The position numbers and the translations under genes were made by a program. A DNA stretch of 64,000 bases, taken from Escherichia coli (GTDB taxonomy: Bacteria > Pseudomonadota > Gammaproteobacteria > Enterobacterales > Enterobacteriaceae). Shown in pieces: positions 1,410-5,059 of the stretch. The notes below the pieces were generated by a model. The model had not been told where the DNA came from. It saw only the letters and a program-made list of their open reading frames with translations, and made no database searches. Every line of letters starts with the position of its first letter. Positions within the stretch are counted from its first letter, which is position 1. The DNA lies in the NCBI RefSeq assembly GCF_024502345.1, contig NZ_JALDNN010000002.1; one strand, given 5' to 3'.

Positions 1410-2605
1410 GGAAGGTGCGAACAAGTTCCTGATATGAGATCATCATATTCATCCGGAGCGCATCCCAGAGGGACATCATGAGCCATCAACTCACCTTCGC
1501 CGACAGTGAATTCAGCAGTAAGCGCCGTCAGACCAGAAAAGAGATTTTCTTGTCCCGCATGGAGCAGATTCTGCCATGGCAAAACATGGTGGAAGTCATC
1601 GAGCCGTTTTAACCCAAGGCTGGTAATGGCCGGCGACCTTATCCGCTGGAAACCATGCTACGCATTCACTGCATGCAGCATTGGTACAACCTGAGCGATG
1701 GCGCGATGGAAGATGCTCTGTACGAAATCGCCTCCATGCGCCTGTTTGCCCGGTTATCCCTGGATAGCGCCTTGCCGGACCGCACCACCATCATGAATTT
1801 CCGCCACCTGCTGGAGCAGCATCAACTGGCCCGCCAATTGTTCAAGACCATCAATCGCTGGCTGGCCGAAGCAGGCGTCATGATGACTCGAGGCACCTTG
1901 GTCGATGCCACCATCATTGAGGCACCCAGCTCGACCAAGAACAAAGAGCAGCAACGCGATCCGGAGATGCATCAGACCAAGAAAGGCAATCAGTGGCACT
2001 TTGGCATGAAGGCCCACATTGGTGTCGATGCCAAGAGTGGCCTGACCCACAGCCTGGTCACCACCGCGGCCAACGAGCATGACCTCAATCAGCCGGGTAA
2101 TCTGCTTCATGGAGAGGAGCAATTTGTCTCAGCCGATGCCGGCTACCAAGGAGCGCCACAGCGCGAGGAGCTGGCCGAGGTGGATGTGGACTGGCTGATC
2201 GCCGAGCGTCCCGGCAGGGTAAAAACCTTGAAGCAGCATCCGCGCAAGAACAAAACGGCCATCAACATCGAATACATGAAAGCCAGCATCCGTGCCAGGG
2301 TGGAGCACCCGTTTCGCATCATCAAGCGGCAGTTCGGCTTCGTGAAAGCCAGATACAAGGGGCTGCTGAAAAACGATAACCAACTGGCGATGTTATTCAC
2401 CCTGGCCAACCTGTTTCGGGTGGACCAAATGATACGTCAGTGGGAGAGATCTCAGTAAAAACCGGAAATAACGCCAGAAATGGTGGAAAAAATAGCCTAA
2501 ATAGGCTGATTCGATGTGTTTGCGGGAAAAAAATCGGCCCAGATCCGCGAAATTTTAATCAGCGAGTCAGCTTGGGAAGAAATGACCTGCTTATTCGCAC
2601 CTTCC
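1410..2605 (+). mobile_element. IS5 copy A (about 1196 bp)
   Basis: Terminal GGAAGGTGCGAA...TTCGCACCTTCC inverted repeats; InsH-like transposase ORF; flanks CTAA / TTAG are not an identical direct repeat. Confidence 0.9.
1478..2458 (+). pseudogene. IS5 transposase InsH with in-frame TAA replacing a Tyr codon (..IEPF*PKAGNG..)
   Basis: ORF track splits into 1506..1694 and 1655..2458; compared with intact copy at 19749..20729 ([11 protein letters not shown]). Confidence 0.8.
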
Positions 2606-2924
2606 TTAGATTATTTTCTTCGTGCAATTCATTGAACCAGTCTTGAATTGCCTGCACTAGTTCGGGGTGCTTAACTGCATTGACCGTTCTGAATAAGGAT
2701 GAAATGGCAATACTGACATCATCAAACCCTCTTATTACGGAACGATTACGTGCCGTGAGAAATCGGTTAAAGTCTGGCGTGCCTGGGGTAATAGTTACTG
2801 TAGCCATGCCGTAATGTTCATTTTTACTTTGCACGACCCTACGGCTATTATCGGACGCATGAGGGGAGCGGGTATTTACGTCAGGTACCTTATGCTCGCT
2901 TTCATTCATTGTTACATCGGTCAT
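2606..2924 (-). pseudogene. Hypothetical protein, 3' end replaced by IS5 copy A sequence
   Basis: 121-aa ORF 2559..2924 whose last 15 codons lie inside the IS5 terminus; overlaps upstream gene by 4 bp (operon). Confidence 0.5.
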
Positions 2925-3406
2925 TGTGCCACCTCTGATTTTGAGTATTGACGGACTTTTCGTCCCAGTTCGATATATGCAGCATGGTAGAACTCAAGTA
3001 ATTCTCTGTAGGGTTCCAGTAATCCCTCCGTTTTTTCAATCATTTCATATTCCCAGCTGGCATGATTAACAAAGCAGCTTTTCGTATATTTTCCACTTTT
3101 CATCGGTGAAATCCGTTTCGACATGTGACTAGGTGGCCTGTTTTTATACGGGCTAAACTGATGCCAGGTAATGGTGACTTTCCTGGCATTACCAATTAGC
3201 TCAACTTTTGGTGCATATGAACCCAGATACTCCTTCTTTAGAGTTTTGCTATCCCTGGGTAAATTCCTCTCAATGTGATTCCGTTCTTTCCACTCGATCC
3301 AATAATTGGTGATCAGTTCTTCAGCCTCTTCTCGAAGAACATCGATTTGTGAGCGCAATAAAGTACGTGAAATCTCTAATGACTTTAATAGCTTCGATTT
3401 AGACAT
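2921..3406 (-). CDS. Hypothetical protein (161 aa), first gene of a two-gene operon
   Basis: ORF with AT-rich promoter-like region upstream; ATGA overlap with the downstream ORF; no recognisable family. Confidence 0.5.
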   Translation of the reverse strand: MSKSKLLKSLEISRTLLRSQIDVLREEAEELITNYWIEWKERNHIERNLPRDSKTLKKEYLGSYAPKVELIGNARKVTITWHQFSPYKNRPPSHMSKRISPMKSGKYTKSCFVNHASWEYEMIEKTEGLLEPYRELLEFYHAAYIELGRKVRQYSKSEVAQ

Positions 3407-3669
3407 GGGGCCTCCTGATGTGAAATCACTATACCGAAGTGATTTTCAATTTTTTTTCACGAACGGGACTTTTTTCTGTGAATTTTTTCGAGAATTTTGC
3501 ATGGCAAATTTAAGAATGGAGGAAGCACTGAGAGTGAGTGACATCAGATGTAAACGGGAACGGCCAAAAGGTCCGCATTTTATCGTGGAAGAAAAGTAAC
3601 TTTTCCAGCAATGCTTATTGCTGAGATCGTGATCTGAAAAGAACTGTTTTACCTACTAAGTTATACATC

Positions 3670-3850
3670 TATCTAGTGCCACTTTTTAAAGGAAAGTGAC
3701 CCTATGATTTTGACGCATAGTGCCACTTTTAAAAAAAGTGACCCTATGTCGTGATTACATAGGGTCACTTTTCATCAAGAAGTGACCCTATGTCGATGGT
3801 GCATAGGGCCACTTTTCAGCAAAAAGTGACCCTATGTAGTAGTCATGTTA
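3670..3850. repeat. Four tandem palindromic repeats CATAGGG(T/C)CACTTTT-N6-8-AAGTGACCCTATG (operator or centromere-like array)
   Basis: Direct reading of sequence: four near-identical 13-bp-arm palindromes spaced about 10 bp apart. Confidence 0.7.
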
Positions 3851-4163
3851 AACAATCGAAAAAATAATCATGCTTACGCGCATTTTTCCCTAAGGTTATT
3901 GCTACTTAATGCCGATAACGACTCAGGCTTTGAGGTTTTTTTATACGGTTCACATTTCGTTAGCAAGGTCAGGGTTTTTTGATAAAATTCTGGTTAGTTT
4001 GGTTAAAAAGTGTTACAAGTATGGGTAATGGCTGAAAGGTTAGTTTTAAGGTTCAAAGCGGCAGTATTAAAATTCCAAAAGTTACTTTTCATCCTTCAGA
4101 ATCCAGACCTTAATTTCATGTAGAAGATTCGTACAATTGTATTGGCGCAAGGACAATCCGCAC

Positions 4164-4964
4164 ATGTCAGAATCAGATAACATCACGCGTAACTTACTCG
4201 GTAAACTATTACGTACCGAGATTTCGATTATTCGTAGTTACCGTGCCTTCTTAATGTTATTGCCTCTTCATGGATCTTCTAAGTATCAAACTGGATCACC
4301 ACTCCTCCAACGCCGACTATTTGGTAATGGATTTGGAGCTATGATTGATAATGCATTTGAAGTTGAAACTCGGCCAGGAAGCTTCCTCGTTCCTCGTTCT
4401 TTAAGTAAAGAGATCTCTTGGGACAAATTCTTTGTAGCTGTAGTTGATGGCGACACTAACGTCATTCGAGAATATGACAGTGAAGATACTGACTTCGGCA
4501 TTTACAATGAAGGTGAAAAAGTAACTTTGCTCAGCGGGCAGGAGGAATTTTATAATCCGAGAAAAATTCAGCAACTACGTTCTAAGTGTGTAGACATTCA
4601 AAATGATTACTTAATGCAAGTTTTCTTTATGTCAATGCTTGCACCTGAGTTTGTTAGTATCTTTTTTGGATTAAAACCTACCACCGTGGAGGCAATAAAA
4701 GATGTCGGGATGTCATCACTTAAATTAATTAATGATGTCGTTCTCTTTCCACGAACAATTCCCTTTACGCCAGGTCTGGGGGATGACAGTGCTACGCTAA
4801 AATCAAAGGTATTTGCTTGGGCATACGAAATATCTGCCGATATTCGTTTGGGTAAAGTTAGTGACGTTTTAATGGAATTACTGCGTTACGACACTATGTT
4901 TACATGCCACCGTCAGGATGTGTTCAATACTTTGGCAAATAAAGTGCTCTTGAAGGATTATTGA
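4164..4964 (+). CDS. Hypothetical protein (about 266 aa)
   Basis: Long ORF (track 4137..4964), no recognisable motifs; downstream of the palindromic repeat array. Confidence 0.5.
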   Translation: MSESDNITRNLLGKLLRTEISIIRSYRAFLMLLPLHGSSKYQTGSPLLQRRLFGNGFGAMIDNAFEVETRPGSFLVPRSLSKEISWDKFFVAVVDGDTNVIREYDSEDTDFGIYNEGEKVTLLSGQEEFYNPRKIQQLRSKCVDIQNDYLMQVFFMSMLAPEFVSIFFGLKPTTVEAIKDVGMSSLKLINDVVLFPRTIPFTPGLGDDSATLKSKVFAWAYEISADIRLGKVSDVLMELLRYDTMFTCHRQDVFNTLANKVLLKDY

Positions 4965-4966
4965 AT

Positions 4967-5059
4967 ATGGCTAAAGTCGATCAAACTAAAGCTAACATGT
5001 TATTGAGCGCTACAAAAACGATGTCTCTTGGTGCCAATAAAAACTCCATAAGGATACTC
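4967..5059 (+). pseudogene. 5' fragment of a gene (MAKVDQTKANMLLSATK...) truncated by IS1
   Basis: ORF starts 3 bp after the preceding stop and runs straight into the IS1 terminus at 5060. Confidence 0.4.

What the first reader, a model, noticed from the sequence alone, without database searches (positions are those of the whole stretch)
2559..5059. Uncharacterised operons and a four-fold palindromic repeat array next to the RepFIB replicon
Between two IS elements lie a minus-strand two-gene operon (161 aa plus 121 aa, the latter clipped by IS5), four tandem palindromes CATAGGG(T/C)CACTTTT-N-AAGTGACCCTATG, and a plus-strand gene of about 266 aa followed by a gene fragment cut by IS1. The palindromes look like multimeric operator or centromere-like binding sites. 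None of the proteins has ParA/ParM NTPase motifs, so this is not a recognisable partition system; a plasmid maintenance, anti-defence or addiction function is plausible given the position.
Basis: seen in the sequence. Interest (0 to 1): 0.5.

Follow-up and report, generated by a model that had tools for sequence, protein, structure and literature searches.

The report
Captured IncHI1 (R27) transfer origin
The palindrome array and its flanking genes are a 2.45 kb leftover of the known transfer origin (oriT) region of the IncHI1 plasmid R27, trapped between insertion sequences; it is not a new maintenance system, though the array's fine structure is informative.

Summary
Window 2607-5059 is 99.6% identical to plasmid R27. 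It holds traH (a MobI-family relaxosome factor, 100% identical), the first 106 codons of R0121, the whole traH-trhR intergenic region, trhR, and 31 codons of trhY. IS5 and IS1 cut it off. That intergenic region is the R27 origin of transfer.

The "four palindromes" are eight 13 bp half-sites of alternating orientation, 22 bp apart (3672-3836). They occur nowhere else in the window or in a 200 kb IncHI1 plasmid. Across IncHI1, pF418 and IncHI2 the half-site columns are 93% invariant against 40% for the spacers. Seven distinct half-site types across ten lineages share this architecture: the outer bases are lineage-specific but palindromic, and the inner ACTTTT-N5-AAAAGT is constant.

The best reading is a cooperative binding array for a plasmid-specific relaxosome protein, most likely TraH, which recruits the MOBH relaxase. 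Here it is an orphan oriT, probably mobilisable by an IncHI1 helper. The partition, addiction and anti-defence readings are not supported.

The locus is already known, so interest is low to moderate. Separately, a 13 bp palindrome, AAAAGTWACTTTT, is about 90-fold enriched across IncHI backbones and is unexplained.

The parts
1410..2606 (+). IS5 copy that truncates R0121. It forms the left boundary of the IncHI1 remnant.
   Evidence: The terminal repeat GGAAGGTGCGAA is visible at both ends, and relatives annotate it as an IS5 transposase. The exact IS5/R0121 junction is shared by 33 plasmids.
2559..2924 (-). Truncated R0121, the second gene of the R27 H operon. It is 240 aa when intact; here residues 1-106 are native and are followed by 15 IS5-derived codons.
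   Evidence: Compared with R27. The full-length protein matches no Pfam or NCBIfam family. An ORF of about 230-260 aa follows mobI in nearly all lineages examined.
2921..3406 (-). traH, an intact MobI-family relaxosome accessory gene of 161 aa.
   Evidence: The protein is 100% identical to R27 TraH (WP_000045622.1) and matches Pfam MobI PF19456 at E=1e-21. The literature names TraH of R27 as the MobI-like mobilisation factor (bioRxiv 10.1101/2025.04.21.649884). The AF2 model (pLDDT 87) shows a helical hairpin with a small basic beta domain.
3407..4163 (.). The traH-trhR intergenic region, which is the oriT region of R27 and contains the divergent H and R promoters.
   Evidence: It differs from R27 at 1 of 757 positions. 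In R27, oriT lies directly next to the MobI-like gene (PMC10838148). From my memory of the Lawley 2002 abstract, this cloned intergenic region was mobilised by R27; the paper is not held.
3421..3443 (-). Conserved inverted repeat AAATCACT-N7-AGTGATTT in the traH leader, just upstream of the ribosome-binding site.
   Evidence: Conserved with only one or two substitutions across IncHI1, pF418 and IncHI2 in alignment A1. Its function was not tested.
3592..3604 (.). Copy of the backbone-wide 13 bp palindrome AAAAGTAACTTTT, on the traH side of the array.
   Evidence: It is conserved at this position in pF418, IncHI2 and Photorhabdus.
3672..3836 (.). The array: eight alternating half-sites (consensus CATAGGGTCACTT and its complement) at 3672-3684, 3694-3706, 3716-3728, 3736-3748, 3758-3770, 3780-3792, 3802-3814 and 3824-3836, spaced about 22 bp apart. 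This is equivalent to four 33-35 bp palindromes.
   Evidence: The motif is unique within the 200 kb IncHI1 plasmid. Half-site columns are 93% invariant against 40% for spacers. The same architecture, with co-varying arms, is found in ten lineages.
3960..3988 (+). Candidate sigma-70 promoter for trhR (TTAGCA-17-TAAAAT with an extended TG).
   Evidence: This is a consensus scan only, and the number of hits equals chance expectation. It does lie in a block conserved across IncHI1, pF418 and IncHI2.
4003..4019 (.). A single conserved half-site-like element, TTAAAAAGTGTTACAAG.
   Evidence: It is invariant in IncHI1, pF418, IncHI2, Photorhabdus and L016, and essentially unique in the IncHI1 plasmid.
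4077..4089 (.). Second copy of the 13 bp palindrome (AAAAGTTACTTTT), 81 bp upstream of the trhR start codon.
   Evidence: Conserved in all IncHI lineages aligned.
4164..4964 (+). trhR, 266 aa and intact. Together with TrhY it activates the tra operons.
   Evidence: It differs from R27 TrhR at 3 residues. Its role is taken from PMC7366339. It has no Pfam match, and the AF2 model is of low confidence. A third palindrome copy lies inside the gene at 4517-4528.
4967..5059 (+). trhY stub: 31 of 170 codons, cut by IS1.
   Evidence: Compared with the intact 170 aa gene in L001 and R27. The stub matches phrog_20999 over residues 1-31.
5060..5827 (-). IS1 copy forming the right boundary of the remnant.
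   Evidence: The IS1 end GGTAATGACTCCAACTTATTGATAGTG is at 5060, and the IS1 transposase ORFs are listed and annotated.

Best explanation
The region is an IS5/IS1-bounded remnant of the Tra1 region of an R27-type IncHI1 plasmid. It carries the whole origin of transfer and its intact accessory gene traH. The relaxase TraI, the coupling protein, TraJ and the mating pore are missing.

The palindrome array is the conserved core of the IncHI oriT. It has eight phased half-sites on roughly one face of the helix, flanked by T4/A4 tracts. A plasmid-specific dimeric or multimeric relaxosome accessory protein binds them cooperatively. The most likely binder is TraH, a MobI-family protein. It would build a nucleoprotein complex that recruits the MOBH11 relaxase TraI to a nearby nic site.

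In this plasmid the element would act as an orphan oriT. A co-resident IncHI1 plasmid supplying TraI, TraG, TraJ and the pilus could mobilise the host plasmid.

What is shown:
- The fragment is R27 DNA.
- The array is unique to this spot, is under purifying selection, and co-varies between lineages.

What is inferred:
- That a protein binds it.
- That the protein is TraH. I put this at about 45%; TrhR/TrhY or a joint complex are the alternatives.
- That the remnant is still mobilisable.
For: Identity:
- The fragment differs from R27 at 9 of 2453 positions, with 0 changes in the array, and TraH is 100% identical.
- Intact IncHI1 relatives show the order trhY<-trhR<-IGR->mobI->R0121->mobH relaxase->traD.
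- oriT lies directly next to the MobI-like gene in R27 (PMC10838148). TraH of R27 is cited as the MobI-like factor that the MOBH11 relaxase requires.

The array is specific to oriT:
- The half-site clusters only at this locus in 200 kb. It is absent upstream of the TrhR/TrhY-activated F, AC and Z operons.

Selection acts on sequence, not only on pairing:
- Half-site columns are 93% invariant, against 40% for spacers and 57% for the rest of the intergenic region (Fisher p about 1e-12).
- The two variant arms that break the palindrome (GTGCC) are themselves conserved across lineages.

Co-variation across ten lineages spanning 33-100% TraH identity:
- All keep a period of about 44 bp and the inner ACTTTT-N5-AAAAGT.
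- The outer 6-9 bp change on both arms together, for example CATAGGGTCAC, CACAGTGTAAC, TTATCGCAC, ATGTTTAAC, CATTGGTAAC, CATTAGTAC and CATCTGTAAC.
- The number of units varies between 3, 4 and 6.

Link to MobI:
- In the IncC, SXT and MGIVchHai6 systems, MobI genetically determines which oriT is used, interacts with itself, binds the relaxase C-terminus, and its oriT lies upstream of mobI.
- Distant mobI lineages that lack trhR/trhY still carry lineage-specific multi-copy repeats upstream of mobI.
Against: - No binding data exist for TraH or for any MobI protein. The literature says only that MobI 'is thought to bind' oriT.
- The array lies 266 bp from the traH start codon. The IncC oriT, by contrast, abuts mobI and is built from 4-7 bp inverted repeats and 14 bp direct repeats.
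- The invariant inner GTNAC-TTTT part of each half-site is shared with a backbone-wide palindrome. That palindrome is found only in lineages carrying TrhR/TrhY, which hints that another protein also reads the array.
- trhR, trhY and the R0121-like ORF diverge in parallel with traH, so co-variation cannot single out the binder.
- As single-stranded DNA the array folds into four stable hairpins (z=-7.9), so a single-strand role is not excluded.
- I could not read Lawley 2002. The exact oriT mapping is cited from memory and from secondary sources.
Confidence: 0.6

Rival explanations
1. The array is a transcriptional operator or enhancer for the divergent H (traH) and R (trhR) promoters. It would be bound by the activators TrhR/TrhY, or by their antagonist HtdA, rather than by the relaxosome. 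A dual role is also possible, as with many oriT accessory proteins that regulate their own expression.
For: - The array sits between two divergent operons, and the H operon is activated by TrhR/TrhY (PMC7366339).
- The inner motif ACTTTT/AAAAGT and the related 13 bp palindrome are found only in lineages that carry trhR/trhY.
- TrhR has many invariant Arg residues and a helix-rich central region.
Against: - The half-site is absent upstream of the other TrhR/TrhY-dependent operons F, AC and Z, and no shared box was found among them.
- The R operon is not regulated by HtdA.
- The array is 124 bp or more from the only plausible trhR promoter and 266 bp from the traH start codon.
- The outer half-site bases are lineage-specific.
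Confidence: 0.2
2. The palindromes act as hairpins in the transferred single strand. They could serve as relaxase recognition or termination hairpins, a single-strand promoter, or a priming signal in the recipient, rather than as duplex protein-binding sites.
For: - The array folds into four hairpins as ssDNA, with a free energy of -38.3 kcal/mol and z=-7.9.
- Both arms change together between lineages.
- The MOBH relaxase of the gonococcal island needs an inverted repeat next to nic (PMC6736028).
Against: - All eight half-sites within a lineage share one sequence, which pairing alone does not require.
- Conserved variant arms break complementarity in the two traH-proximal units, and they do so in four lineages.
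- The alternative register is equally palindromic, so no unique hairpin set is favoured.
- The 22 bp phasing points to a face-of-helix arrangement on duplex DNA.
Confidence: 0.1
3. The array is a partition centromere or another plasmid-maintenance site serving the neighbouring replicon.
For: Phased repeat arrays resemble parC/ParR-type centromeres in their geometry. The locus lies 2.6 kb from a replication initiator gene.
Against: - An IS5 element separates the array from the replicon.
- In its native plasmid the array lies in Tra1, flanked by transfer genes. The R27 par genes lie more than 100 kb away.
- No NTPase or ParR/ParB-like protein is adjacent in any IncHI lineage.
- None of the proteins hits a partition family.
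Confidence: 0.03

Closest known systems
oriT / Tra1 region of IncHI1 plasmid R27 (Lawley et al. 2002, J Bacteriol 184:2173; Sherburne et al. 2000)
   Same: It is the same DNA: 99.6% identical over 2453 bp, with an identical array and an identical TraH. The flanking genes traH, R0121, trhR and trhY are the same.
   Different: Here it is a remnant. R0121 and trhY are truncated. traI, traG, traJ and the pilus genes are absent. It sits in a non-IncHI plasmid between IS5 and IS1. I could not check whether the eight-half-site anatomy was described in the original paper, which is not held.
oriT-MobI modules of IncC/IncA plasmids, SXT/R391 ICEs and MGIVchHai6 (MOBH12)
   Same: - The accessory protein belongs to the MobI family (PF19456).
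- oriT lies upstream of mobI.
- MobI gives oriT specificity and recruits a MOBH1 relaxase.
- The region is AT-rich and contains repeats.
   Different: - The IncC oriT is about 150 bp and abuts mobI. It is built from 4-7 bp inverted repeats and overlapping 14 bp direct repeats. The minimal MGIVchHai6 oriT is 49 bp.
- The IncHI array is 165 bp, made of eight 13-15 bp half-sites at 22 bp phasing, 266 bp from traH.
- IncHI mobI is co-transcribed with the relaxase operon and faces trhR/trhY.
- The relaxase C-terminal domains of MOBH11 and MOBH12 differ.
Multi-site oriT accessory proteins of other plasmids (F TraM/TraY, R388 TrwA, RP4 TraJ/TraK) and ParR-parC arrays
   Same: Several phased binding sites within or beside oriT are bound cooperatively by a small oligomeric protein, which remodels the DNA and recruits the relaxase. 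This is established knowledge, cited. The repeat-array geometry recalls parC.
   Different: TraH has no sequence or fold relationship to these proteins. The strictly alternating orientation of the half-sites is unlike the direct repeats of parC. No partition NTPase is present.

Membership tests
IncHI1 (R27) oriT region | Sequence identity to the R27 traH-trhR intergenic region | tested here: met
   1 substitution in 757 bp and none in the array.
IncHI1 (R27) oriT region | Flanked by traH (H operon) on one side and trhR (R operon) on the other, transcribed divergently | tested here: met
IncHI1 (R27) oriT region | Acts in cis to allow mobilisation by an IncHI1 helper | not testable with these tools
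   Reported for the cloned R27 intergenic region (Lawley 2002, from memory). It has not been tested for this remnant.
MobI family (Pfam PF19456) relaxosome accessory factor | Profile match over the whole domain | tested here: met
   PF19456, E=1e-21, covering residues 24-147 of the protein and positions 1-115 of the 116-position model.
MobI family (Pfam PF19456) relaxosome accessory factor | The gene lies next to oriT and is linked to a MOBH (TraI_2) relaxase | tested here: met
   Intact relatives have mobI->ORF->MobH/TraI_2. In the window itself the relaxase has been lost.
MobI family (Pfam PF19456) relaxosome accessory factor | Binds its cognate oriT and recruits the relaxase | not testable with these tools
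   For IncC there is only genetic and two-hybrid evidence. The TraH model shows no known DNA-binding fold.
IncC/SXT-type (MOBH12) oriT architecture | A core of about 70-150 bp abutting mobI, made of short 4-7 bp inverted repeats and overlapping 14 bp direct repeats | tested here: not met
   The array is 165 bp, made of 13-15 bp alternating half-sites, 266 bp from traH, which differs from the description in PMC5587640. The IncC sequence itself could not be fetched.
Plasmid partition system (ParA/ParM + adaptor + centromere) | A partition NTPase gene adjacent to the repeat array | tested here: not met
   None is present in the window or in any IncHI-type locus with trhR/trhY examined. No NTPase domains were found.
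FlhDC-like master activators (AcaCD/SetCD), considered for TrhR/TrhY | Profile match to FlhD or FlhC | tested here: not met
   TrhR has no Pfam hit. TrhY has only a weak zinc-ribbon-like hit at E=0.05. Neither has an NCBIfam hit.
Anti-phage defence / addiction systems | A match to known defence or toxin-antitoxin protein models | tested here: not met
   No PADLOC hits for TraH, TrhR, R0121 or TrhY. The only PHROG hits are to families of unknown function.

The most novel reading that the evidence does not exclude
The array may be the first readable recognition code for a MobI-family adaptor. It has eight phased half-sites whose outer 6-9 bp co-evolve with the plasmid lineage. The inner GTNAC-TTTT is shared with a 13 bp palindrome (S-AAAAGTWACTTTT-S) that is scattered about once every 3-4 kb over the whole backbone of IncHI1, IncHI2 and Klebsiella IncHI1B-type plasmids. 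That palindrome is absent from accessory DNA and from the three sampled mobI loci that lack trhR/trhY. This would imply an undescribed plasmid-wide DNA-binding system, such as a global regulator (for example TrhR/TrhY) or a DNA-organising factor, that intersects physically with the relaxosome at oriT.
Probability: 0.3. Interest if true: 0.6.

Novelty: already known. Interest (0 to 1): 0.3.

Why it matters
Practical consequence: an intact oriT(HI1)-traH module sitting in unrelated plasmids predicts that those plasmids can be mobilised by IncHI1 helpers. IncHI1 plasmids are major carriers of multidrug resistance in Salmonella and E. coli. At least 33 plasmids of E. coli, Citrobacter, Shigella and Enterobacter share the same junction. 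Typing tools that look for a relaxase would score these plasmids as non-mobilisable or would mis-score them.

Mechanistic consequence: where MobI proteins bind DNA is still unknown. The co-varying half-site series gives concrete, swappable targets for testing oriT specificity in the MOBH1 family.

The backbone-wide 13 bp palindrome is a separate lead. It may point to how IncHI plasmids co-ordinate expression of most of their genes.

Tried and rejected
- TrhR as a distant MobI paralog. The predicted topologies look similar and both have a K-x-[VI]-x-W motif, but hhalign gives 0.1% probability. Rejected.
- The small inverted repeat at 3587-3605 as a nic-proximal relaxase hairpin. I first read the differing but complementary outer bases between lineages as compensatory changes. 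The core then turned out to be a motif present 46 times across the plasmid. It is not specific to oriT, and the apparent stem extensions partly reflect a wider G/C-flanked consensus.
- A common TrhR/TrhY box. A 12-mer comparison of the regions upstream of F, H, AC and Z gave only AT-rich low-complexity matches.
- L016 as a natural mobI-only element that would separate MobI from TrhR. It is another IS1-truncated remnant.
- L012. The assembly is full of frameshifts, so I did not use it for protein comparisons.
- Known RNA families. The only hit is a spurious microRNA-hairpin match far below threshold.
- Defence systems. No hits.
- NCBIfam. No hit for TraH, although RefSeq names it MobI(A/C).
- Papers and records I could not obtain. 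Lawley 2002 is not held under its DOI or PMC id. The IncC plasmid R55 record is not in the collections.
- Literature search for the 13 bp palindrome string. No relevant paper.

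
Full report
OBSERVATION

On the minus strand:
- A 161 aa ORF lies at 2921-3406.
- A 121 aa ORF lies at 2559-2924 and overlaps the first by 4 nt.

On the plus strand:
- A 266 aa gene lies at 4164-4964.
- A 31-codon stub lies at 4967-5059 and runs into IS1, which starts at 5060.

Four 33-35 bp palindromes lie at 3672-3836 with a 42-44 bp period. The half-site AAGTGACCCTATG (up to 2 mismatches) occurs 7 times in the 64 kb window, all between 3694 and 3836. Chance would give 1.04, and none of 100 shuffles reached 7.

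The junctions between palindromes are also inverted repeats with a 9 bp spacer. The array is therefore best described as eight half-sites of strictly alternating orientation. Their centre-to-centre spacings are 22, 22, 20, 22, 22, 22 and 22 bp, which is two helical turns.

WHAT THE REGION IS

A search of the plasmid collection found the 2.46 kb stretch at 99.6-100% identity in 238 records. In these the 161 aa gene is annotated as mobI.

In intact IncHI1 plasmids the gene order is:
- trhY <- trhR <- intergenic region -> mobI(traH) -> R0121 -> MobH relaxase (traI) -> coupling protein -> ... -> DUF4400 (traJ).
- The pilus genes trhF, trhH and trhG lie beyond trhY.

A direct comparison with R27 (NC_002305.1) gives the following:
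- There are 9 substitutions in 2453 bp.
- One of these is in the 757 bp intergenic region, and none is in the array.
- TraH is 100% identical.
- TrhR differs at 3 residues.
- The 121 aa ORF consists of residues 1-106 of the 240 aa R0121 plus 15 codons read from the IS5 end.

TraH matches Pfam MobI (PF19456) at E=1e-21.

The literature assigns these roles:
- R0122 is traH, a relaxosome protein of the H operon.
- R0123 and R0124 are trhR and trhY, the R operon. Their products are jointly required to activate the F, H, AC and Z transfer operons, and HtdA counteracts them (PMC7366339).
- TraH of R27 is cited as the MobI-like mobilisation factor of MOBH11 relaxases (bioRxiv 10.1101/2025.04.21.649884).
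- In R27, as in SXT, the gene for this factor lies directly next to oriT (PMC10838148).

From my memory of the Lawley et al. 2002 abstract, the traH-trhR intergenic region was cloned and was mobilised by R27, and that is how oriT was defined. The paper is not in the library.

So the 'uncharacterised operons' are named transfer genes, and the array lies in a known oriT.

The fragment is a remnant:
- An IS5 element cuts R0121, and an IS1 element cuts trhY.
- An IS5 element separates the fragment from the neighbouring replication gene.
- The exact IS5/R0121 junction is shared by 33 plasmids, 66-296 kb in size, from E. coli, Citrobacter, Shigella and Enterobacter.
- This points to one ancestral capture event that has since spread.

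WHAT THE ARRAY IS

1. It is specific to oriT. In a complete 200 kb IncHI1 plasmid the half-site clusters only here. It is absent upstream of the other TrhR/TrhY-dependent operons.

2. It is under sequence-specific selection.
- In an alignment of the IncHI1, pF418 and IncHI2 intergenic regions, half-site columns are 93% invariant.
- Spacer columns inside the array are 40% invariant, and the rest of the region is 57% invariant (Fisher p about 1e-12).
- The two traH-proximal variant arms (GTGCC) break the palindromes but are themselves conserved in four lineages. This argues for recognition of sequence rather than mere hairpin pairing.

3. It co-varies. I collected loci from ten lineages with TraH identities from 100% down to 33%:
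- The lineages are IncHI1, pF418, Photorhabdus, IncHI2, four metagenomic or draft-genome lineages, and two Klebsiella IncHI1B-type lineages.
- All have an array of 3, 4 or 6 palindromes upstream of mobI with a period of about 44-46 bp.
- All keep the inner ACTTTT-N5-AAAAGT.
- The outer 6-9 bp differ between lineages yet match on both arms: CATAGGGTCAC, CACAGTGTAAC, TTATCGCAC, ATGTTTAAC, CATTGGTAAC, CATTAGTAC and CATCTGTAAC.

This is the signature of a binding site that co-evolves with a symmetric, plasmid-encoded binding protein.

WHO BINDS IT

TraH is the leading candidate, for these reasons:
- In the better-studied MOBH12 systems, MobI determines genetically which oriT is used.
- MobI interacts with itself and binds the C-terminal domain of the relaxase.
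- Its oriT lies upstream of its own gene.
- Three more distant mobI lineages lack trhR/trhY and have ParA- or ParM-type genes upstream instead. They still carry lineage-specific multi-copy repeats in front of mobI, with other architectures.

The assignment is nonetheless an inference:
- No MobI-DNA binding has been shown.
- The confident TraH model (pLDDT 87) is a long helical hairpin with a small basic beta domain. It resembles no known DNA-binding fold.
- trhR, trhY and the R0121-like ORF diverge in parallel with traH.
- The TrhR model is poor and uninformative.
- TrhR is not a MobI paralog.
- As single-stranded DNA the array can fold into four hairpins (z=-7.9), so a single-strand role cannot be excluded.

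My estimates are about 0.97 that this is the R27 oriT region, about 0.7 that the array is a duplex protein-binding core of the relaxosome, and about 0.45 that the binder is TraH.

COMPARISON WITH KNOWN SYSTEMS

The locus is R27's own oriT, so it is already known.

Compared with the IncC oriT, the IncHI array is architecturally distinct:
- The IncC oriT is about 150 bp, abuts mobI, and is built from 4-7 bp inverted repeats and overlapping 14 bp direct repeats (PMC5587640).
- The minimal oriT of MGIVchHai6 is 49 bp.
- The IncHI array is 165 bp of phased alternating half-sites, 266 bp from traH.

The array works like other multi-site oriT accessory systems (TraM, TraY, TrwA) without being related to them.

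Partition, addiction and defence readings fail their defining tests. No NTPase is present, no partition protein is linked in any IncHI lineage, and there are no PADLOC hits.

CONSEQUENCE FOR THIS PLASMID

The intergenic region and traH are intact. The relaxase, the coupling protein, TraJ and the pilus are absent. The element should therefore behave as an orphan oriT that an IncHI1 helper can mobilise. This is inferred and has not been tested.

SIDE OBSERVATION: A BACKBONE-WIDE PALINDROME

Two small palindromes flank the array: AAAAGTAACTTTT at 3592-3604 and AAAAGTTACTTTT at 4077-4089. A third copy lies inside trhR at 4517-4528.

Abundance:
- The core AAAGTNACTTT occurs 46 times in the 200 kb IncHI1 plasmid, against about 0.5 expected.
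- It occurs 16 times in 50 kb of an IncHI2 plasmid and 18 times in 50 kb of a Klebsiella IncHI1B-type plasmid.
- In the 64 kb window it occurs only 3 times, all inside the IncHI1 remnant.

Distribution:
- Half of the copies are intergenic, although only 20% of the plasmid is non-coding (p=5e-6).
- None lies in the accessory resistance regions.
- Copies sit upstream of traH, trhR, trhA and many backbone genes.
- The motif is absent from the three mobI loci that lack trhR/trhY.
- Its GTNAC-TTTT half is also the invariant inner part of the oriT half-sites.

No paper in the library contains the motif string. Its binder and its function are unknown. HtdA-TrhR/TrhY control extends to most R27 genes, which makes TrhR/TrhY an obvious candidate. 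However, the F-operon upstream region, the usual reporter for that circuit, has no copy.

VERDICT

The locus is an already known transfer origin, present here as a captured remnant. Interest is low to moderate. What value remains lies in the co-varying half-site series, which gives a testable MobI/oriT specificity code, and in the unexplained backbone-wide palindrome.

Noticed in passing
window 3592-3604, 4077-4089, 4517-4528; L003-L006 (NZ_CP018652.1) whole plasmid; L018; L019: The 13 bp palindrome AAAAGT(A/T)ACTTTT, often flanked by G/C, is about 90-fold enriched on IncHI-type backbones. There are 46 copies in 200 kb of IncHI1 against 0.5 expected, 16 in 50 kb of IncHI2 and 18 in 50 kb of a Klebsiella IncHI1B-type plasmid. 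Half the copies are intergenic (p=5e-6). None lies in accessory regions, and the motif is absent from the three mobI loci without trhR/trhY. No paper in the library contains the motif string. The binder and function are unknown.
   Followed up: partly
window 2480-2720 (IS5/R0121 junction): The identical junction is present in 33 plasmids (66-296 kb) of E. coli, Citrobacter, Shigella and Enterobacter, many from wastewater. The oriT(HI1)-traH remnant therefore arose once and has spread widely. PLSDB lists one carrier (NZ_LT883141.1) as mobilizable with a MOBP relaxase, with no reference to this oriT.
   Followed up: partly
window 1610-1612 and the inverted IS5 copy at about 6011-7207 (stop at about 6994-6996): Both IS5 copies carry the same in-frame TAA, reading ...EPF*PKAG... 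where the IS5 transposase has Tyr. This splits the transposase into 44 aa and 267 aa ORFs. The two copies flank the remnant in inverted orientation.
   Followed up: no
window 3421-3443 (minus strand, traH leader): The inverted repeat AAATCACT-N7-AGTGATTT lies immediately upstream of the traH ribosome-binding site. It is conserved, with only one or two substitutions, in IncHI1, pF418 and IncHI2, while the sequence around it diverges. It may be a translational or stability element.
   Followed up: no
window 4003-4019; L016 393-417 and 695-712: A single half-site-like element, TTGTAACACTTTTT, lies just downstream of the candidate trhR promoter. It is invariant across all IncHI lineages examined and essentially unique in the IncHI1 plasmid.
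   Followed up: partly
L006 47600-47710 (NZ_CP018652.1 197645-197752): Three copies of CAAAAGGCACTTTTCTGCCGCC occur at a 43 bp period next to a RepB-family replication gene (198244-199119). They look like iterons and resemble the AAAAG-N-CACTTTT motif family.
   Followed up: no
L001 11367-11879 (TrhY, 170 aa); window 4164-4964 (TrhR): The conjugation activators TrhR and TrhY match no Pfam or NCBIfam family. TrhY has only a weak zinc-ribbon-like signal at residues 129-169 (E=0.05), so my initial guess that they are FlhDC/AcaCD-like is not supported by sequence.
   Followed up: partly
L023 2610-2992; L022 2774-2981; L021 2562-2682: Distant mobI-TraI_2 loci without trhR/trhY have different repeat systems upstream of mobI. 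L023 has five copies of a 30 nt direct repeat, three of them holding a (T)CTACAC-N7-GTGTAGA-type inverted repeat. L022 has TTGGCATACA half-sites in both orientations. L021 has GAAGCA direct repeats at 11 bp spacing. They sit next to ParM- or ParA-type genes, so some of these repeats may be centromeres rather than oriT elements.
   Followed up: partly
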